This document shows, in pieces, positions 32,255-39,651 of a DNA stretch of 64,000 nt (positions within the stretch are counted from its first letter, which is position 1; every line of letters begins with the position of its first letter). Both the position numbers and the translations under genes were made by a program. Origin of the DNA: Escherichia phage PECP14; the sequence record OQ870555.1. The stretch is one strand, 5' to 3'. The notes beneath the pieces are model-generated. The model saw only the letters and a list, made by a program, of their open reading frames with translations, was not told the DNA's origin and searched no databases.

Positions 32255-34129
32255 TTATTTAGCGCGAATGTCTTGATGTTTCACTCGACCCATAACCTCA
32301 TGTTGTTTACCTGGGTTAAACGGACGAGCACCTGGATTTCCAAGATATCCACAAACTCGACGAGTTACCTCAAGAGTCTCAGGATCATGATTGCCACAAA
32401 TTGGGCATTTGAAACCATCCTCAGAAGCTATAGTTTCACCCAAGAACCCACATTCCCCACAAGAGTCTACTGGAGTATTAATACCGAAGTAATGAACTTT
32501 ACTTGCAGCATAGTTAATAACCCATTCCAGTGCATCAGGGAATCGTTTCATATCCGGTAATTCCACATAGGAAATGCACCCACCAGAAGCAATAGGAGTA
32601 AAGTTAGACTCATAATCAAACTTCACATTTGGAGCAACCTTACGTTCTACATCAAGGTGATGGGAATTAGTGTAATATCCTTTAGCCAGAATATCTTCAT
32701 GCTCTGGGAAATACTCACGGTCTAGGCGACAGAAGCGATCACATAGAGATTCAGATGGTGTAGCATACAGACTATACCCTAATTGAGTCTCTTCCTTCTT
32801 CTGATCAGCACGATCACGCATGTATTGTAGCACACGTTGAACGAACTTGATACAAGACTCAGACATTGTATCTACATCTTTACCAAACATGAGCTGCAAC
32901 ATTTCGTGGCAACCAATATATCCTAGAGATACAGAAGCACGCTTGTAGAAATGATCAAATACATATTCATCTGGCCCCAGACGTAATCCAAAGGCTCCTG
33001 ACATATAGAGGATGGGCGCAGCTTTAGCTTGAATGTATTTTAAGCGATCAACCCTCCACTCCAATGCTTTTAACGCGGTATCCACACGCAGCTCAAGCAG
33101 ATCGAAGAATAGATCAATATTTCCTTCCGCTTCGATAGCGATTCGAGGAAGGTTTACGGAAACAACGCCTAAGTTGTTACGACCAGAAGTTTCACCATCT
33201 TCCGCAGCAGCCAGGAACGAACGACAGCCCATAGAGACTTTGTAGTCCCCCGTAACTTCTACAACCTTATCATAACTGATGTAGTCAGGATACATACGTT
33301 CAGCAGTACATTTCATAGCTAACTTCTTGATATCATAGTTAACATCACCAGGTTTCATGTTTACGCCCTCACGCAAAACAAATACCAGTTTAGGGAAGAT
33401 AGCTGTACGTTTATTGATACCCAAACCATCCATACGTACTTCTAGTATTGCTTTCTGTACAAGACGTGCTTCCCAAGAAGTTCCTAGACCAAAACCAAAG
33501 GTAATAAACGGACTTTGACCATTAGAGTTGAACATCGTATTGATTTCATACTCCAGGCCCTGACAGGCATCGTAAACTTCTTTCTCAGTCATTTCCGTAG
33601 CCATTACAGATGCTTTGGCTTCATCCTTAGTCCAACGCTTTGCAAACGCATGATTCTTATCATAAGACTTACGAACATAAGGAGCCAATACTTCATCTAA
33701 TCGGTCTACAGAAGTACCCCCATATTGATGTGAACTAACCTGAGTGATAATCTGAGCTGTGATAGCAGCCGCAGTAGTAATAGAGTTTGGTGTACTGATT
33801 TCAGCATTACCAACCTTCATACCATTCTTCAACATATCTTCCAAAGCAACCAGGCAACAGTTAGTCATACCTAATGCAGCGTAATCAGCATCATGGAAGT
33901 GAATATCACCAATCATGTGAGCATTTCGAATCTGGATTGGCATTTCTTCCAGAATCAGATATTTACTCAATTCCCCTGCAAGCATATCCCTTTGTGTAGG
34001 GAAACGTTCTGAGGGCTTATTGGCATTATTAAACAGCAGCTCTTCATCTGCTGAACCTTCGATAATTTCTTTGCAGTTTCGAATCAAGGACTGCATTCCT
34101 TTATACTTTAGTTCTTCATTGCGATTCAT
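32255..34129 (-). CDS. nrdD: anaerobic ribonucleoside-triphosphate reductase
   Basis: 624 aa; C-terminal glycyl-radical motif RVCGYLG and Zn-ribbon cysteines (CGECG...CPICG); RBS GAAGGAGGG. Confidence 0.9.
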   Translation of the reverse strand: MNRNEELKYKGMQSLIRNCKEIIEGSADEELLFNNANKPSERFPTQRDMLAGELSKYLILEEMPIQIRNAHMIGDIHFHDADYAALGMTNCCLVALEDMLKNGMKVGNAEISTPNSITTAAAITAQIITQVSSHQYGGTSVDRLDEVLAPYVRKSYDKNHAFAKRWTKDEAKASVMATEMTEKEVYDACQGLEYEINTMFNSNGQSPFITFGFGLGTSWEARLVQKAILEVRMDGLGINKRTAIFPKLVFVLREGVNMKPGDVNYDIKKLAMKCTAERMYPDYISYDKVVEVTGDYKVSMGCRSFLAAAEDGETSGRNNLGVVSVNLPRIAIEAEGNIDLFFDLLELRVDTALKALEWRVDRLKYIQAKAAPILYMSGAFGLRLGPDEYVFDHFYKRASVSLGYIGCHEMLQLMFGKDVDTMSESCIKFVQRVLQYMRDRADQKKEETQLGYSLYATPSESLCDRFCRLDREYFPEHEDILAKGYYTNSHHLDVERKVAPNVKFDYESNFTPIASGGCISYVELPDMKRFPDALEWVINYAASKVHYFGINTPVDSCGECGFLGETIASEDGFKCPICGNHDPETLEVTRRVCGYLGNPGARPFNPGKQHEVMGRVKHQDIRAK

Positions 34130-34481
34130 TATACCCTCCTTCTCTAACTAAGACTACTATTATAACTCATTCGAAGGCGGATGTCAACAATATTTTACTA
34201 TAAAGTTCTGTAACATGATCTGAGTCAAAAAATTTTATTTGCCAACCTCTACTAAAAATAGTATAATCACGCACCCGTGTACGCGATATAAAATGATTAT
34301 CTAGTACCATACATCTCCCAGTAAAAGCAAGTAAATTTTTTATTTAAATGCAATATCATAGGCTTATTTAAAATTGTAGTTGCCTTTTACTGTATATAAT
34401 GGTATAATATATTTGTAAGTTGATAAACAAGATCTTTTTGTTGATCCTCTGTTAGCGAAGTACACTATAGGAGTGTTATTT

Positions 34482-35234
34482 ATGGGAAAACCGCGTCAGA
34501 AAAGAGAGAACCGTAATGGTTCAAGAAAGCGTAGCAACAAGTACGAGAGTAACGTAATTCAGGCTGACTTTTCGAATGATTACGCCAATCCAGTTGCTAA
34601 ATCCCTAGTTGGTAAAAACCGTGAGCAAAAATCATATATCAATATGATCAAGAATAACACAGTGACTGTGGGTATTGGTGAACCAGGTACTGGTAAAACC
34701 TTCATCCCGTCAGTTCTTGCAGCTCAGGAACTCGTAGACATTCACTCAGATATTGAGCAAGTGATCCTCGTGCGTCCGAACGAACCTCTAGGTAAATCTC
34801 TTGGTATGCTCCCAGGTGATCTGGCAGAAAAGCTAGAGCCTTGGTTGGAACCAATAGCCGATGGCATGAAATGGGCAATCGGTGATCACGCCTACAAAGG
34901 ATATGTCGAACGCCAGAAAATTAAATTCCTGGCTATCGAACATGCCCGTGGCCGAACTTTCAACAACTCCTATGTAATTGTCGATGAAGCTCAGAATATC
35001 TCCGTTGAAGCAATGATCTGTCTCCTGACTCGTGTCGGACAGGATTGCCGTTTAATCATCTGTGGAGATATCGCTCAGAAAGACATTAAGGGTGACTCCG
35101 GTCTAGCACTTCTTATGGAAGTCTATGAGAAGTACGAGAACGCCCCTTTCTCAATGATCGAACTAATTGATAACGTTCGTTCTGTTGAGTCTAAAGCATT
35201 CTACGATATCTTTAAGGATATGGGGAAGGTATAA
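34482..35234 (+). CDS. phoH: PhoH-like ATPase
   Basis: Walker A GEPGTGKTF, Walker B VIVDEAQN; ATG at 34482 with RBS AGGAG. Confidence 0.85.
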   Translation: MGKPRQKRENRNGSRKRSNKYESNVIQADFSNDYANPVAKSLVGKNREQKSYINMIKNNTVTVGIGEPGTGKTFIPSVLAAQELVDIHSDIEQVILVRPNEPLGKSLGMLPGDLAEKLEPWLEPIADGMKWAIGDHAYKGYVERQKIKFLAIEHARGRTFNNSYVIVDEAQNISVEAMICLLTRVGQDCRLIICGDIAQKDIKGDSGLALLMEVYEKYENAPFSMIELIDNVRSVESKAFYDIFKDMGKV

Positions 35235-35478: not shown

Positions 35479-35599
35479 TATAGAAGGCCTGGGTATGAAA
35501 ATACTCGGGCCTTTTCTATCAGAAAATTTTATTTGCCAAATGACTGAGAATAAAGTAAACTATTTCCTTAATCCTGATAATTACAAAAAGGAAAGCCAA

Positions 35600-37930
35600 A
35601 TGAGCCATCGCATCGAAAAAGTAATTAAACGTGACGGTACTGTTCAGGACTTTGCTCCTGAAAAACTCAATGATTGGGCCGCATGGGCATGTAAAGATAC
35701 TGACGTAAGTTGGTCTGCCGTAGTTATGGCTGCCCTGAAAAATCTACCCAAAGGTGTTGTAGACTCCGATACACTCCAAGATGTGTTAATTAAAGCCGCT
35801 GAAGGTCTTATCAAAGACAATCCAGCATATGATACTGTAGCAAAGGAATTACGTCTTGCGCAGATGCGTAAACGCCTATATGATTCCTTCGAACCACCTT
35901 CTCTGCGTTTCTTCCACGATCATATGGTTCGTGTTGGCGCTTGGGAAGACATGAGTGCATGGATTAGCGATGATCAGTTTGACGCTCTGAATCAAGTTAT
36001 TGACCATGATCGCGATCGTTTATTCACCAGTGGTGGACTGAAACAGTTCTTCGACAAGTATTCCCGTCGTAATATTGCAACTGGTGAAATTTATGAAACC
36101 CCGCAGTTTGCCTACATGGGTATGGCAATGGCGATGTTATCTCAACCTAACTGGACAATTCTAGATGCAATCGACCTCTACAATGCAATGTCGCTCCACA
36201 AAATCAACGTTCCTACGCCGCCACTGGTTGGCCTGCGCTCTAGTGACCGTGGATTTGCTAGTTGCTGCCTCGTGGATTCCACTGACACTCTGGATTCAAT
36301 CGACACAGCCGAGCACATCGTCTTCAAAATGGTCGCAGCCAGAGCGGGAATCGGGTATCATCTTGAAAGCCGATCAATTGCTGATCCGGTGCGAAATGGG
36401 GCATTCCCGCATTCCGGAAAACTGCCATATTATCGACACATTGACCGTTCAGTAAAAGCTAACACTCAGCAAACCCGTGGCGGTTCTGCTACTGTGTCTT
36501 ATCCATACTTCGATCCTGAAATCATTCAGTTGATGCAGGTTAAACAGCAACGTGCTACAGACGAGAATAAAATCGATAAAATGGATTACTCTCTGAGCTT
36601 TAACAACCTTCTGTTAAAACGTTACCTGAAAAACGAAGATATTACGCTAATGTCCTACTTCTACGCACCAGAAGTTCATGAAGCGTTTTATGGCGAAGAT
36701 GAGGCTAAGTTTGAAGAAATCTACATGGCAGCGGAGAAACGTGTGGCATCTCTTACAAAGATCGACCACGAAGGGAAAACAATTCCAGCAGCTCCTAGAA
36801 TCTCTGCAAAAGAAATCCTAGATACTTGGTTACGCATCCGTATGGAAACAGGGCGTATGTACGCTCATCATATTGGTGAATCTAACCGTCATGGTAACTT
36901 CCTTGACCCGATTCGTATGACCAACCTTTGTGTAGAGATTACTCAGCCTACTCGTCCATTCCAGCACATTACGGAACTGTACAAAACTGCGGATCAATTA
37001 GATGATATGCGTCCAGAAGATATTGGTGAAGTATCTCTGTGTAACTTAGGTGGTGTTGTACTTGGACGCATGGAATCTCTGGCTGAGTGGGAAAAAACTT
37101 GCTACATCCTACTGAAATTCGTTGATACAATTATTGAAATTCAGGATTATCCGTTCCCAACTATGGAATATACAGCTAAGAAACGTCGTAATGTTGGTAT
37201 TGGCCTGATGAACGCAGCAGGTGCAATGGCAGCAGAAGGTCTGGCTTATGAAGGTATTGAAGCCCGTAACTGGATTCACCGTGAGGCTGAAAAACTGTCT
37301 TACTTCCTGCATAAAGCCTCTGTACGCCTAGCTAAAGAACAGGGTGCATGTGAGTGGTTTGATCGTACTAAACCATCTAAAGGAATTCTGGTAATCGACA
37401 CGTACAAGAAAACTGTTGATGAACTGGTATCCGTAGGTCTAGAAATGGATTGGGAGTCTCTGCGTGCAGATATTCTGAAATATGGTATGCGTAATTCTGT
37501 TCTGACTGCTCAGATGCCAGGAGAAAGTTCTTCTGTTCTGCTAGGAGTTACTAACTCTATCGAACCGCCTCGTAAGATTGTATCTATCAAGGGTAGTGCA
37601 GTGAATAAAGTAATTGCAATTGCTCCAGGTGCAACCGATTGGGAAACGTTAATGAGCTATAAACTGGCTTATGATGTAGATCGTATCGAGTGGATCAAAT
37701 GGGTAGCAACTATGCAGAAATTCTTCAGTCAGTCTATCAGTACGAATATGTACTATGACTACACCAAGTTTGATAATGAAATCATTCCTGGCCCAGTAGT
37801 AGTTCGTGATTTCATGACTGCTGTTAAGTATGGGTGGAAAACTTTCTACTATGCAAACTTCAATACCGCAAATGGTGGAGGTGCTGGAGAAGAAGCAGCC
37901 GGTTGTGCATCCGGCGGTTGTACTATTTAA
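35600..37930 (+). CDS. nrdA: ribonucleoside-diphosphate reductase alpha subunit
   Basis: ATP-cone N-terminus (MSHRIEKVIKRDGTVQDF), catalytic region with NLCVEI; ATG at 35600 with RBS AAAGGAAAG. Confidence 0.9.
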   Translation: MSHRIEKVIKRDGTVQDFAPEKLNDWAAWACKDTDVSWSAVVMAALKNLPKGVVDSDTLQDVLIKAAEGLIKDNPAYDTVAKELRLAQMRKRLYDSFEPPSLRFFHDHMVRVGAWEDMSAWISDDQFDALNQVIDHDRDRLFTSGGLKQFFDKYSRRNIATGEIYETPQFAYMGMAMAMLSQPNWTILDAIDLYNAMSLHKINVPTPPLVGLRSSDRGFASCCLVDSTDTLDSIDTAEHIVFKMVAARAGIGYHLESRSIADPVRNGAFPHSGKLPYYRHIDRSVKANTQQTRGGSATVSYPYFDPEIIQLMQVKQQRATDENKIDKMDYSLSFNNLLLKRYLKNEDITLMSYFYAPEVHEAFYGEDEAKFEEIYMAAEKRVASLTKIDHEGKTIPAAPRISAKEILDTWLRIRMETGRMYAHHIGESNRHGNFLDPIRMTNLCVEITQPTRPFQHITELYKTADQLDDMRPEDIGEVSLCNLGGVVLGRMESLAEWEKTCYILLKFVDTIIEIQDYPFPTMEYTAKKRRNVGIGLMNAAGAMAAEGLAYEGIEARNWIHREAEKLSYFLHKASVRLAKEQGACEWFDRTKPSKGILVIDTYKKTVDELVSVGLEMDWESLRADILKYGMRNSVLTAQMPGESSSVLLGVTNSIEPPRKIVSIKGSAVNKVIAIAPGATDWETLMSYKLAYDVDRIEWIKWVATMQKFFSQSISTNMYYDYTKFDNEIIPGPVVVRDFMTAVKYGWKTFYYANFNTANGGGAGEEAAGCASGGCTI

Positions 37931-37938
37931 TAAAAACA

Positions 37939-37964
37939 AGGAGATCTTCGGGTCTCCTTTTTCT
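37939..37964 (+). terminator. rho-independent terminator after nrdA (UUCG tetraloop)
   Basis: AGGAGATC-TTCG-GGTCTCCT followed by TTTTTC. Confidence 0.7.
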
Positions 37965-37976
37965 TTGAAATTTTAC

Positions 37977-38005
37977 TTGCTAATCGCTACCAGATTTGCT
38001 ATAAT
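37977..38005 (+). promoter_or_regulatory. early promoter module ending 6 nt before the HNH endonuclease ATG
   Basis: TTGCTA-17 nt-TATAAT, then ATCTAT-ATG; implies a leaderless or very short-leader transcript. Confidence 0.6.
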
Positions 38006-38011
38006 ATCTAT

Positions 38012-38509
38012 ATGAAATTAACACAGAGTAGATTAAAAGAGCTAATCTCCTATGACCCTGAAACTGGCGAATTTACCTGGCTCCCAAGAAAAACTTTAGC
38101 AAAGCATTTATGGAACGCTAAAGCAGGAACCTATGATAAATTAGGGTATCTTCGTATAAAAGTTGAAGGAGTTCAATATTTAGCTCATCGCCTAGCCTTC
38201 TTGTATATGACTGGAGAAATACCAGAAGGAAAAATTGACCATAAAGATACTAATCCGTCTAATTGCGCCTGGGATAATCTCCGTGAAGCCACGAGTTCTC
38301 AAAATTCTATGAACTCGTGTGCAAGATCGGATAACCAGCTTGGAATGAAAAATATTCGTGTAAAAGGCACTTCATTTCAGGTTAGGATAGGCAAAGACGG
38401 CAAATCTTATACAAAAACTTTTAAAACCCTAGAAGAAGCTATAGAATGGAGAGACACCAAACTACTAGAACTTCATGGGGACTTTGCAAACAACGGAGAA
38501 GCTAAATGA
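38012..38509 (+). CDS. free-standing HNH homing endonuclease with AP2-type DNA-binding domain
   Basis: 165 aa; HNH core (...LAHRLAF...KIDHKDTNPSNCAWDNL...), AP2-like C-terminus (NIRVKGTSFQVRIGKDGKSYTKTFKTLEEAIEWRD); between nrdA and nrdB, 4-nt overlap with nrdB. Confidence 0.8.
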   Translation: MKLTQSRLKELISYDPETGEFTWLPRKTLAKHLWNAKAGTYDKLGYLRIKVEGVQYLAHRLAFLYMTGEIPEGKIDHKDTNPSNCAWDNLREATSSQNSMNSCARSDNQLGMKNIRVKGTSFQVRIGKDGKSYTKTFKTLEEAIEWRDTKLLELHGDFANNGEAK

Positions 38510-39651
38510 CTACTTTACTTAACTTAGAATGGGATCATACTAACGCTGATCTTTTCCTCGGTGATTCTTTGGGTATCGCAGATTATGTGCGTGTGGCACA
38601 CCCCGAACTAGAGCGATTAGCTCTGTTGCAGCGTTCCCAGTTCTGGACTGAAACTGAAATTAGTCTTGAAGCTGATAAAAAGCAGTGGGGTAATCTCCCA
38701 CGTGATATTCAGGAAATTACTCTCCTGAACTTAGCATGGCAGACCCAAACAGATTCTTTCATTAGCCGTGCTCCTGAAGCAGCTATTATGCCGCTTGTAA
38801 GCCGTCCTGAATTGGAGGGTATGCTCAAGCAGTGGAGCTACTTCGAAGATCTGCACAGCCGTGCGTATAGTAATATTATTCGTAACGTTCTGACTGATCC
38901 AGCAGAATTTATTGATTCTGTAACTAAAAACCAAGAAGCATTTGCACGTATCGCAGATTCTGTTGAACTGTTTGATGAATTGTATCTGTTAGGTCAGTAT
39001 TTCCTTGCAGTACGTGATCATCGTGGTGATAATACTTATCCAGAAACTGAGTTCCCTGAAGTTAAACGTGAAACTCAGGCTAAGCTGTTAGATGCTTACT
39101 TTGCAATCTACGGTCTGGAAGCAATGCAGTTCTACGCATCCTTTGCATGTACCTTTGCTCTAGCAGAGAACGATATTCTGCAAGGTATTGCTAAGAACCT
39201 GCAATTAATCGCTAAAGATGAAGCTCTACATACTCAAATGTCTAAAGCTATCATCCAGATTATGTTCCAGCAGTTTGATAAAGATCTGGTAGACGAAGCA
39301 TTAGCTAAAGCACCAGCACAACTCCTAAAAACTCTGAAAACTGAGATTGAATGGGGTCACTTTATCTTTAAAGGCCGTAGTCTGATTGGTTTGAACGCAG
39401 AACTGCTTGAAGAATACCTTTACTTTGTAGGACGTAACGCATTTATGCACATTGGTGTAGAATGGCCAAGCCACTTACCTGTAATTACTAAGAATCCGAT
39501 TCCGTGGATCATGAACTGGTTGGATACTACTTCTCTACAACCTGCTCCGCAAGAGATTCAGATTGGTGCAGCCTACCGCGTAGGTCAAGTCACAGAAACC
39601 TCTGCTGATACTCTGAAAGATCTTGGCAACGAATTTGAGGGTATGTTCTAA
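38506..39651 (+). CDS. nrdB: ribonucleoside-diphosphate reductase beta subunit
   Basis: 381 aa; diiron/tyrosyl-radical ferritin-like fold (..EDLHSRAYS.., ..KDEALHT..). Confidence 0.9.
   Translation: MTTLLNLEWDHTNADLFLGDSLGIADYVRVAHPELERLALLQRSQFWTETEISLEADKKQWGNLPRDIQEITLLNLAWQTQTDSFISRAPEAAIMPLVSRPELEGMLKQWSYFEDLHSRAYSNIIRNVLTDPAEFIDSVTKNQEAFARIADSVELFDELYLLGQYFLAVRDHRGDNTYPETEFPEVKRETQAKLLDAYFAIYGLEAMQFYASFACTFALAENDILQGIAKNLQLIAKDEALHTQMSKAIIQIMFQQFDKDLVDEALAKAPAQLLKTLKTEIEWGHFIFKGRSLIGLNAELLEEYLYFVGRNAFMHIGVEWPSHLPVITKNPIPWIMNWLDTTSLQPAPQEIQIGAAYRVGQVTETSADTLKDLGNEFEGMF

What the first reader, a model, noticed from the sequence alone, without database searches (positions are those of the whole stretch)
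37977..38509. Free-standing HNH-AP2 homing endonuclease between nrdA and nrdB, with a promoter ending 6 nt before its ATG
A 165-aa HNH plus AP2 ORF sits exactly between the RNR alpha and beta genes and overlaps the nrdB start by 4 nt. T4 carries a mobile endonuclease (mobE) at the same nrdA/nrdB junction. Its promoter (-10 at 38000-38005) leaves essentially no leader before the ATG at 38012, suggesting leaderless expression or dependence on read-through past the nrdA terminator.
Basis: partly seen in the sequence, partly recalled or inferred. Interest (0 to 1): 0.55.

Follow-up and report, generated by a model that had tools for sequence, protein, structure and literature searches.

The report
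T5-like phage homing endonuclease gene
This is a selfish mobile nuclease gene, already annotated and published, wedged between the two ribonucleotide reductase genes of a T5-like phage; the one fresh point is that it has taken over the reductase promoter so closely that its message probably starts at its own start codon.

Summary
The ORF is 38012-38509 (165 aa). The terminator is at 37938-37959. The promoter is TTGCTA-N17-TGcTATAAT, with -10 at 38000-38005, six nt before the ATG. The ORF overlaps nrdB by ATGA.

The window is a T5-like phage, 99.9% identical to Salmonella phage fuchur. The gene is annotated there and was described in phage AKFV33 in 2012, with the T4 mobE parallel.

The protein is an I-HmuI-like HNH nuclease with conserved catalytic residues. 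Its C-terminal AP2 fold shows only at profile and structure level.

It behaves as a mobile element:
- About 60% of relatives have an empty junction.
- About 6% carry this allele.
- The rest carry one of at least four other alleles.
- The first ~195 nt of nrdB co-segregate with the allele, mostly through synonymous changes.
- dN/dS is about 0.04.

The element replaced the nrdB leader and supplies a new GGAG for nrdB. T4 MobE is not detectably homologous.

The new point is the geometry TATAAT-N6-ATG with no Shine-Dalgarno. It is kept in four diverged lineages, while sister alleles carry a leader, a Shine-Dalgarno and GTG or TTG. This points to leaderless translation, which is inferred and not shown.

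The parts
35495..37930 (+). nrdA, the large subunit of class Ia ribonucleotide reductase; forms the left flank of the junction
   Evidence: Pfam Ribonuc_red_lgC 5.8e-120, lgN and an ATP-cone. The 3' end of nrdA does not co-segregate with the endonuclease allele.
37938..37967 (+). Intrinsic terminator after nrdA: a 9-bp stem with a 4-nt loop, then a T-run
   Evidence: -12.5 kcal/mol, z = -2.6. Identical in endonuclease-free relatives. Annotated in AKFV33 and HASG4.
37977..38005 (+). Native nrdB early promoter of T5 type: TTGCTA, 17-nt spacer, TGcTATAAT
   Evidence: The same sequence stands in front of nrdB in genomes with an empty junction. Annotated as a promoter in AKFV33. It fits the window's promoter template.
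38012..38012 (+). Predicted transcription start, which is the A of the endonuclease ATG (inferred)
   Evidence: It is the 7th nt after the -10. In 21 of 32 window promoters that position is the A that opens the conserved ATAAATT initial transcribed sequence. The N6 spacing is conserved in four lineages.
38012..38509 (+). Free-standing homing endonuclease gene, allele A, 165 aa
   Evidence: Identity of 98-100% to annotated HNH or homing endonuclease genes in 28 phage records. dN/dS 0.04-0.09. AlphaFold2 mean pLDDT 95.7.
38177..38311 (+). HNH (His-Me finger) nuclease core, residues 56-100, with D76, H77, N89 and N98
   Evidence: Pfam HNH_3 1.2e-16. Alignment to I-HmuI 1U3E. These columns are invariant or nearly invariant in 66 homologs. 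Foldseek top hit is 1U3E at 8.8e-4.
38342..38491 (+). AP2-like DNA-binding domain, residues about 111-160: three strands and one helix
   Evidence: The family profile matches the AP2 domains of WRI1 (4.1e-9) and TEM1 (2e-5). 34 of 66 homologs match Pfam AP2. The model has strands 115-118, 121-128 and 131-137 and helix 140-158. Foldseek finds WRI1 and TEM1 AP2 only weakly (E 0.05-0.1). The protein alone gives no Pfam AP2 match.
38495..38498 (+). GGAG inside the last codons of the endonuclease, 7 nt before the nrdB ATG; a replacement Shine-Dalgarno for nrdB
   Evidence: Read directly from the sequence. GGAGAA is kept at this place in alleles A, B, B', phiLLS, Sugarland and L041. L043 has only GGA there (AAAGGATAA).
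38506..39651 (+). nrdB, the small subunit of ribonucleotide reductase; forms the right flank
   Evidence: Pfam Ribonuc_red_sm 2.3e-35.
38506..38700 (+). Allele-linked tract of nrdB, about nt 1-195. It is inherited with the endonuclease and probably holds the target site in its immune form
   Evidence: Genomes with allele A are 95-100% identical to the window here whatever their background. Other genomes are 67-88% identical here, even when 100% identical further downstream. There are 34 differences between the A and empty consensus sequences in nt 1-195, against 3 in nt 196-300. Only two of them change an amino acid.

Best explanation
The ORF at 38012-38509 is one allele (here called A) of a family of free-standing homing endonuclease genes. 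This family occupies the nrdA-nrdB junction of T5-like phages (Demerecviridae).

The protein joins an I-HmuI-like HNH nuclease core to a C-terminal AP2-type DNA-binding domain.

The element sits immediately downstream of the native nrdB early promoter. It has replaced the 31-nt stretch between that promoter's -10 and the nrdB ATG, which carries the nrdB Shine-Dalgarno. Its own last codons (..AACGGAGAAGCTAAATGA) supply a new GGAG 7 nt before the nrdB ATG, so nrdB is still translated from the same transcript.

The 7th nt after the -10 hexamer is the A of the ATG, and no Shine-Dalgarno precedes it. The endonuclease is therefore most likely translated from a leaderless early mRNA that begins with AUG. 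An alternative is a leader of only 1-2 nt.

In mixed infections the enzyme most likely nicks or cuts endonuclease-free or other-allele genomes within the first ~200 bp of nrdB. Repair from the donor genome then copies the gene together with about 195 nt of synonymously recoded nrdB.

Shown here: gene identity, domain content, intact catalytic residues, patchy distribution, allele-linked flank, purifying selection, promoter identity and the conserved geometry.

Inferred: the transcription start, leaderless translation, the cleavage site and active homing.
For: Identity and annotation: the region is 99.9% identical to phage fuchur, and the gene is annotated as an HNH or homing endonuclease in relatives.

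Domains and structure:
- HNH_3 1.2e-16 and phrog_99 1.9e-61.
- The catalytic D76, H77, N89 and N98 are aligned with I-HmuI and invariant or nearly so in 66 homologs.
- AlphaFold2 gives mean pLDDT 95.7, with 1U3E as the top Foldseek hit.
- The AP2 domain is supported by the family profile (4.1e-9) and by 34 of 66 homologs.

Patchy distribution: 38 typed loci gave 16 empty, 9 A, 7 B', 2 B, 3 C and 1 phiLLS-type. Allele A occurs in both Tequintavirus and Epseptimavirus at 98% identity or more.

Linkage and selection: nrdB nt 1-195 is linked to the allele by almost purely synonymous differences. dN/dS is 0.04 against STWB21.

Promoter: the same terminator and promoter precede nrdB in empty junctions.

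Leaderless geometry:
- TATAAT-N6-ATG with a variable N6 and no Shine-Dalgarno is seen in the window, Sugarland/L042, L041 and L043. These proteins are 71-78% identical.
- Sister alleles B, B' and phiLLS carry 20-nt leaders with AAGGAG or GGGAG and start with GTG or TTG.
- The window's promoters start their conserved ATAAATT at the 7th nt after the -10.
- In E. coli, leaderless translation depends on a 5'-terminal AUG (PMC4965119).
- The first 50 nt of the predicted message are essentially unstructured.
Against: No experimental transcription start, protein or cleavage data exist for this allele, and no start-site mapping for T5-like phages was found.

A start 1-2 nt upstream or downstream of 38012 would give a very short leader, or would miss the AUG altogether.

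Read-through of the nrdA terminator could also supply message.

The allele-linked nrdB tract shows that the gene and its flank are inherited together. It does not prove that the enzyme cuts there.

The AP2 assignment fails for the protein alone against Pfam, and the Foldseek AP2 hits are weak (E 0.05-0.1).

The four lineages with the leaderless geometry form one clade. The geometry may therefore have been inherited once rather than repeatedly selected, although the N6 sequence has changed while its length has not.
Confidence: 0.75

Rival explanations
1. The gene is a mobile HNH endonuclease as described, but it is not expressed from a leaderless mRNA. Its message would come from read-through of the nrdA terminator, or from a start site a few nt away. 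The AU-rich upstream sequence would then allow weak initiation on 30S subunits without a Shine-Dalgarno. This would keep enzyme levels low, much as T4 mobE depends on upstream transcription.
For: T4 mobE has no promoter and is co-transcribed with nrdA (PMC2790892). The start site here is only predicted. The sequence upstream of the ATG is AU-rich.
Against: The terminator is strong and conserved. A strong promoter with an extended -10 lies immediately upstream. The exact N6 spacing and the ATG are kept in four lineages while the N6 bases change. Under a read-through model there is no reason for that constraint. The alleles with a leader use GTG or TTG, and only those without one use ATG.
Confidence: 0.2
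2. The gene no longer acts as a homing element. It has been retained for another use, such as exclusion of competing T5-like phages or site-specific nicking of phage DNA. Its patchy distribution would then reflect ordinary recombination between mosaic phage genomes.
For: Purifying selection is strong (dN/dS 0.04). The closest solved relative, I-HmuI, is a nicking enzyme (own knowledge). The named T5 HNH enzymes F-TflI, F-TflII and F-TflIV have been characterised (cited in PMC3326045). T5-like genomes are highly mosaic.
Against: Five different alleles and an empty state share one precise junction. A sharply bounded, synonymously recoded flank travels with each allele. That is the expected footprint of endonuclease-driven gene conversion. 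Most relatives do without the gene. Exclusion of competitors and homing are in any case the same biochemical act.
Confidence: 0.1
3. The ORF is a decaying remnant of an endonuclease gene that is neither translated nor active, which would explain the missing ribosome-binding site.
For: It has no Shine-Dalgarno. Defunct endonuclease genes such as T4 I-TevIII exist at RNR loci.
Against: The frame is intact in all 28 records and in lineages only 71-78% identical. dN/dS is 0.04-0.09, and pN is 0.16 where pS is saturated. All catalytic residues are kept. The structure model is confident.
Confidence: 0.03

Closest known systems
ORF96 of Escherichia phage vB_EcoS_AKFV33 (YP_006382395) and the identical or near-identical genes of fuchur, Sds2, SmurfNell, Spc35, Th1 and SB13
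   Same: It is the same gene, 98-100% identical in nucleotides, at the same junction and with the same promoter and terminator. The AKFV33 paper places it between nrdA and nrdB and notes the mobE parallel (PMC3326045).
   Different: Essentially nothing differs. The published description does not mention the missing leader, the origin of the promoter or the linked nrdB tract.
T5 putative H-N-H endonuclease P-TflVIII (YP_006923), which is allele B' here
   Same: It occupies the same junction, downstream of the same promoter. It belongs to the same HNH plus AP2-like family and shares the LEEAIEWRD-type C-terminal motif.
   Different: The AKFV33 paper puts its ORF96, which is 98% identical to the window's gene, at about 42% protein identity to it. 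It has a 20-nt leader with an AAGGAG Shine-Dalgarno and a TTG start, not a leaderless ATG. It is linked to a different nrdB 5' tract.
T4 MobE, a free-standing HNH endonuclease between nrdA and nrdB
   Same: It holds the same position between the two RNR genes. MobE nicks T2 nrdB at nt 122-126, and its recombination points fall within the first 189 nt of nrdB (PMC2790892). Here the linked tract spans nrdB nt 1-195, with differences most dense at nt 91-180.
   Different: No sequence similarity is detectable: BLASTP E = 40 and hhalign probability 0.07%. MobE has no promoter and is co-transcribed with nrdA, whereas this gene sits directly on a strong early promoter.
I-HmuI (PDB 1U3E), an intron-encoded HNH nicking endonuclease of Bacillus phage SPO1
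   Same: It is the closest solved structure: phmmer 9.4e-4, family profile 2.7e-7 and Foldseek 8.8e-4. D74, H75, N87 and N96 match D76, H77, N89 and N98.
   Different: I-HmuI is encoded in an intron, and its C-terminal DNA-binding part is not an AP2 domain. Overall TM-score is only about 0.4.
Leaderless mRNAs of enterobacteria and their phages, such as lambda cI from PRM
   Same: The message is predicted to begin at the A of an AUG, with no Shine-Dalgarno. AUG is strictly kept, as leaderless initiation in E. coli requires (PMC4965119).
   Different: The transcription start has not been mapped here. The gene is the first cistron of an early operon whose second cistron (nrdB) uses an ordinary Shine-Dalgarno.

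Membership tests
HNH / His-Me finger endonucleases (Pfam HNH_3, I-HmuI-like) | A beta-beta-alpha-metal motif that matches the family model above its curated threshold | tested here: met
   HNH_3 scores 60.4 bits against a cut-off of 24.8, E = 1.2e-16, over residues 56-100. The model has strands 74-77 and 90-93 and helix 95-100. Foldseek's top hit is 1U3E.
HNH / His-Me finger endonucleases (Pfam HNH_3, I-HmuI-like) | A catalytic His with its preceding Asp, and the structural and metal-binding Asn residues | tested here: met
   D76, H77, N89 and N98 align with I-HmuI D74, H75, N87 and N96. D76, H77 and N98 are invariant and N89 is at least 90% conserved in 66 homologs. The catalytic roles of the I-HmuI residues are taken from my own knowledge of that structure.
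AP2 DNA-binding domain (Pfam PF00847) | A match to the AP2 family model | tested here: inconclusive
   The protein alone gives no match, even at E = 10. However, 34 of 66 homologs match AP2, the best at 1.1e-12. The family profile matches the AP2 domains of WRI1 (4.1e-9), TEM1 (2e-5) and ERF1 (0.028) over positions 109-161.
AP2 DNA-binding domain (Pfam PF00847) | A three-stranded antiparallel sheet packed on one helix | tested here: met
   The model has strands 115-118, 121-128 and 131-137 and helix 140-158, with pLDDT of 91 or more through residue 160. Foldseek hits to the TEM1 and WRI1 AP2 domains are weak, at E 0.05-0.1.
Free-standing homing endonuclease genes | Presence or absence at one precise site among close relatives | tested here: met
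   In an evenly spaced sample of 57 informative records, 35 have an empty junction and 4 carry allele A. Of 38 typed loci, 16 are empty. The insertion borders are identical: after TATAATAT(C/T) on the left and at the nrdB ATG on the right.
Free-standing homing endonuclease genes | Flanking DNA inherited together with the gene (co-conversion tract) | tested here: met
   nrdB nt 1-195 follows the allele rather than the genomic background. This is a population signature and not a cross.
Free-standing homing endonuclease genes | Site-specific cleavage or nicking of the allele that lacks the gene | not testable with these tools
   This needs purified protein or in vivo mapping.
Free-standing homing endonuclease genes | Biased (super-Mendelian) inheritance in mixed infection | not testable with these tools
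   This needs phage crosses.
T4 MobE family | Sequence homology to MobE | tested here: not met
   BLASTP gives E = 40. Profile-to-sequence hhalign gives probability 0.07%. Only the genomic position and the likely target region are shared.
Leaderless mRNA genes | Transcript 5' end at the A of the start codon | not testable with these tools
   This is inferred from the geometry only. The ATG lies at the 7th nt after the -10, where 21 of 32 window promoters place the A of ATAAATT.
Leaderless mRNA genes | An AUG start (not GUG or UUG) and no Shine-Dalgarno | tested here: met
   All four lineages with the N6 geometry start with ATG and have no purine-rich motif in the N6. The alleles with a leader use GTG or TTG together with AAGGAG or GGGAG.

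The most novel reading that the evidence does not exclude
One clade of these endonuclease genes has fused its start codon to the transcription start of a strong T5 early promoter. The nuclease would then be made from a true leaderless mRNA from the first minutes of early transcription, while nrdB is translated from a Shine-Dalgarno written into the nuclease's last codons. Sister alleles at the same site use the opposite solution, a leader with a strong Shine-Dalgarno and a weak GTG or TTG start. Together they would form a natural pair of alternative ways of setting a low or early dose of a selfish nuclease. It would also be a rare conserved leaderless gene in a lytic enterobacterial phage.
Probability: 0.55. 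Interest if true: 0.45.

Novelty: already known. Interest (0 to 1): 0.3.

Why it matters
The gene itself adds nothing new. It is annotated in dozens of T5-like genomes, and its position and its resemblance to T4 mobE were published in 2012.

The comparative picture is a tidy natural experiment in homing endonuclease biology:
- One precise junction carries an empty state and at least five competing alleles.
- Each allele is tied to its own synonymously recoded 5' end of nrdB.
- There are two contrasting ways of expressing the gene from the same host promoter.

If the leaderless reading is confirmed, two things follow. It would give a simple, testable example of how a selfish gene inserts into an essential operon without silencing the downstream gene. 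It would also show that the RNR junction has been colonised independently by unrelated HNH lineages in T4-like and T5-like phages, which apparently aim at the same part of nrdB.

Tried and rejected
- Pfam AP2 on the whole protein and on the C-terminal 55 residues at E up to 10 gave no AP2 match, only a sub-threshold WGR hit. The AP2 claim therefore had to be tested through the family profile and a structure model.
- NCBIfam returned only meaningless sub-threshold hits.
- Homology to T4 MobE was rejected.
- I considered that the promoter came in with the endonuclease. This is rejected, because empty junctions carry the identical promoter and terminator.
- Linkage of the nrdA 3' end to the allele was looked for and not found.
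- The pseudogene reading is rejected by dN/dS and by residue conservation.
- Literature searches found no report of a leaderless homing endonuclease in an enterobacterial phage (the hits were actinophage or unrelated). They also found no transcription start map of T5-like phages.
- A structured 5' end that might hide the AUG or the nrdB ribosome-binding site was tested and not found; z-scores were -0.6 and 0.0.
- The gene was then read with the ORF listing.

Full report
**Observation**

nrdA runs from 35495 to 37930 and nrdB from 38506 to 39651, and both have strong Pfam matches. Between them lie these elements, in order:

- A hairpin terminator at 37938-37959 followed by a T-run. Its free energy is -12.5 kcal/mol, z = -2.6 against shuffles.
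- A promoter TTGCTA (37977-37982), a 17-nt spacer and TGcTATAAT, with the -10 at 38000-38005.
- Six nt, ATCTAT.
- A 165-codon ORF from 38012 to 38509. Its stop overlaps the nrdB start as ATGA.

The ATG at 38012 is the first canonical start after an in-frame TAA at 37931. No purine-rich ribosome-binding motif precedes it. Among the 32 promoters of the form TTGNNN-N16-18-TATAAT in the window, this is the only one with the start of a sizeable ORF 4-9 nt after the -10.

**What the window is, and what was already known**

The segment is 99.9% identical to Salmonella phage fuchur and 96-97% identical to falkor, Th1 and AKFV33. All are T5-like phages of the Demerecviridae. The ORF is annotated there as an HNH or homing endonuclease.

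In AKFV33 the record also annotates the terminator and the promoter. The AKFV33 paper states that ORF96 lies between nrdA and nrdB and is 42% identical to the T5 HNH endonuclease P-TflVIII. It also compares the gene with T4 mobE (PMC3326045). The core of the finding is therefore already in the literature.

**The protein**

- Pfam HNH_3 matches residues 56-100 at 1.2e-16, and PHROG 99 (HNH endonuclease) matches at 1.9e-61.
- The closest solved protein is I-HmuI (1U3E). In the alignment, D76, H77, N89 and N98 match I-HmuI D74, H75, N87 and N96. D76, H77 and N98 are invariant and N89 nearly so in an alignment of 66 homologs.
- The AP2 part is less direct. The protein alone gives no Pfam AP2 match.
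- However, 34 of 66 homologs do match AP2. A profile of the family matches the AP2 domains of WRI1 (4.1e-9), TEM1 (2e-5), ERF096 and ERF1 over positions 109-161, and matches I-HmuI over positions 39-106.
- An AlphaFold2 model with mean pLDDT 95.7 shows three strands and a long helix at residues 115-158. Foldseek ranks I-HmuI first at 8.8e-4, followed by weak hits (E 0.05-0.1) to WRI1 and the TEM1 AP2 domain.

The architecture of an HNH core plus an AP2-like domain is therefore supported.

**Distribution**

A search with the junction found 443 T5-like records. Rows were sampled at even steps down the ranking, and the span of each match gives the junction state. The 57 informative rows split as follows:

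| Junction state | Records |
|---|---|
| Empty | 35 |
| Allele A (the window's) | 4 |
| Allele B | 4 |
| Allele B' | 8 |
| Allele C | 5 |
| phiLLS-type | 1 |

The ORF itself is found at 92% identity or more in 28 records. These belong to both Tequintavirus (AKFV33, Spc35) and Epseptimavirus (fuchur, SB13, CitS1, SmurfNell, STWB21).

All the alleles belong to one protein family but are highly diverged.

**Whose promoter it is**

Empty junctions carry the identical terminator and promoter. After the -10 comes ATTCCTGAAATAGTGAGAAAGAGGAAAATCA and then the nrdB ATG. The promoter is therefore the native nrdB early promoter.

- Alleles A, B, B' and phiLLS-type all begin right after TATAATATC and end at the nrdB ATG, so they replace the nrdB leader.
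- Allele C instead sits upstream of the promoter.
- Each downstream allele ends with GGAGAA 6-9 nt before the nrdB ATG. In the window this is GGAG at 38495-38498, 7 nt before the ATG. The lost Shine-Dalgarno of nrdB is thus replaced from within the endonuclease's last codons. L043 is the exception among the lineages read, with only GGA at that place.

**Signature of mobility**

I compared 1.5 kb on each side of the junction across the 38 loci.

- The nrdA side shows no link to the allele.
- The first ~200 nt of nrdB do. Every allele-A genome is 95-100% identical to the window there, including AKFV33, whose nrdB further downstream is only 86-93% identical.
- Genomes without allele A are 67-88% identical there, even when the rest of nrdB is 99-100% identical. 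Examples are cott162 and SE24.
- Between the A and empty consensus sequences there are 34 differences in nt 1-195 and 3 in nt 196-300. Counts per 30 nt run 5, 2, 4, 8, 6, 6, 3, 1, 1, 1. Only two differences change an amino acid.

This is the expected footprint of gene conversion driven by a nuclease whose target lies in the 5' part of nrdB. It also matches T4 MobE closely. MobE nicks T2 nrdB at nt 122-126, and its recombination points fall within the first 189 nt of nrdB (PMC2790892). Yet MobE and this protein show no detectable similarity. The two phage groups seem to have been colonised independently at the same place.

**Is the protein made?**

- dN/dS is 0.09 against AKFV33 and 0.04 against STWB21, with 30.7 synonymous and 6.3 non-synonymous differences in the latter comparison.
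- Against Klebsiella phage Sugarland, synonymous sites are saturated while pN is 0.16.

The reading frame is under strong purifying selection, so it must be translated. This rules out a decaying remnant.

**How it is expressed**

The window's early promoters follow a rigid template: TTGCTT-N17-(c)TGTATAAT-N6-ATAAATT(T/G)GAGAGAGGA..ATG. The 7th nt after the -10 is A in 21 of 32 promoters and opens the conserved ATAAATT. From my own knowledge of the classical T5 promoter PN25, that A is the transcription start.

In the endonuclease promoter the same position is the A of ATGAAATT. The predicted transcript would therefore begin with AUG.

The comparative test is the strongest evidence. Four diverged lineages of this clade all have TATAAT, exactly six variable nt, then ATG, with no Shine-Dalgarno. 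Their proteins are 71-78% identical.

| Lineage | Six nt between TATAAT and ATG |
|---|---|
| Window type | ATCTAT (ATCTAC in STWB21) |
| Sugarland | ATTCAC |
| L042 | ATTCTC |
| L041 | ATCTGT |
| L043 | ATATTC |

The Sugarland annotators marked ribosome-binding sites for the neighbouring genes but none for this one.

The sister alleles at the same site are built differently. B, B' and phiLLS-type have 20-nt leaders with AAGGAG or GGGAG, and they start with GTG or TTG. The pattern is ATG only where there is no leader, and weak start codons only where there is a strong Shine-Dalgarno. That is what the known requirement of E. coli leaderless translation for a 5'-terminal AUG predicts (PMC4965119).

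The first 50 nt of the predicted message are essentially unstructured. This remains an inference, because no mapped 5' end is available. I put the leaderless reading at about 0.55-0.6.

**Verdict**

It is also ordinary in kind and already annotated and published. The corrections are that the promoter belongs to nrdB and that MobE is an analogue, not a homologue.

This analysis adds three things: the conserved leaderless geometry, the replacement of the nrdB ribosome-binding site, and the allele-linked recoded nrdB tract that points to the likely target. These are modestly interesting to people who study mobile nucleases and are readily testable. They do not change the classification.

Noticed in passing
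L017 152-3394 (IMGVR_UViG_2974606035, a T5-like phage with an empty nrdA-nrdB junction): Its NrdA is 1080 aa rather than 811 aa. It carries an in-frame insert that matches LAGLIDADG_3 (4.3e-14, residues 599-684). This is probably an intein inside nrdA, which would make it a second kind of mobile element at the same RNR locus.
   Followed up: partly
window, 32 sites on both strands (for example 44344, 51274, 53115, 25360-, 32213-): The early promoters follow a very rigid template that extends well beyond the hexamers: TTGCTT-N17-cTGTATAAT-ATATTT-ATAAATTTGAGAGAGGA, then 6-10 nt, then ATG. Promoter, initial transcribed sequence and Shine-Dalgarno therefore form one conserved cassette of about 70 nt that is reused in front of many genes.
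   Followed up: partly
L005 2034-2638 (cott162), L014, L034: Allele C of the endonuclease family sits upstream of the nrdB promoter and comes with a different nrdA terminator. The same intergenic region therefore has two distinct insertion points.
   Followed up: partly
window 38000-38020 compared with L002 2101-2125: The empty junction reads TATAATATTCCTGAAATAGTG and allele A reads TATAATATCTATATGAAATTAAC. The shared GAAAT suggests that the endonuclease start codon may have formed from the first transcribed nucleotides of the native nrdB message (CTG to ATG, plus 2 nt). This is speculative.
   Followed up: no
window 32255-34129 (-) and 34473-35234 (+): A 624-aa ORF on the minus strand has the look of an anaerobic ribonucleotide reductase (NrdD-like, with a C-terminal glycyl-radical-type motif). 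A PhoH-like gene lies just upstream of nrdA, as it does in the annotated relatives.
   Followed up: no
window 35495 (nrdA start): Relatives annotate nrdA with different starts, giving lengths of 776, 797 or 811 aa. The true start of nrdA in this group is unsettled.
   Followed up: no
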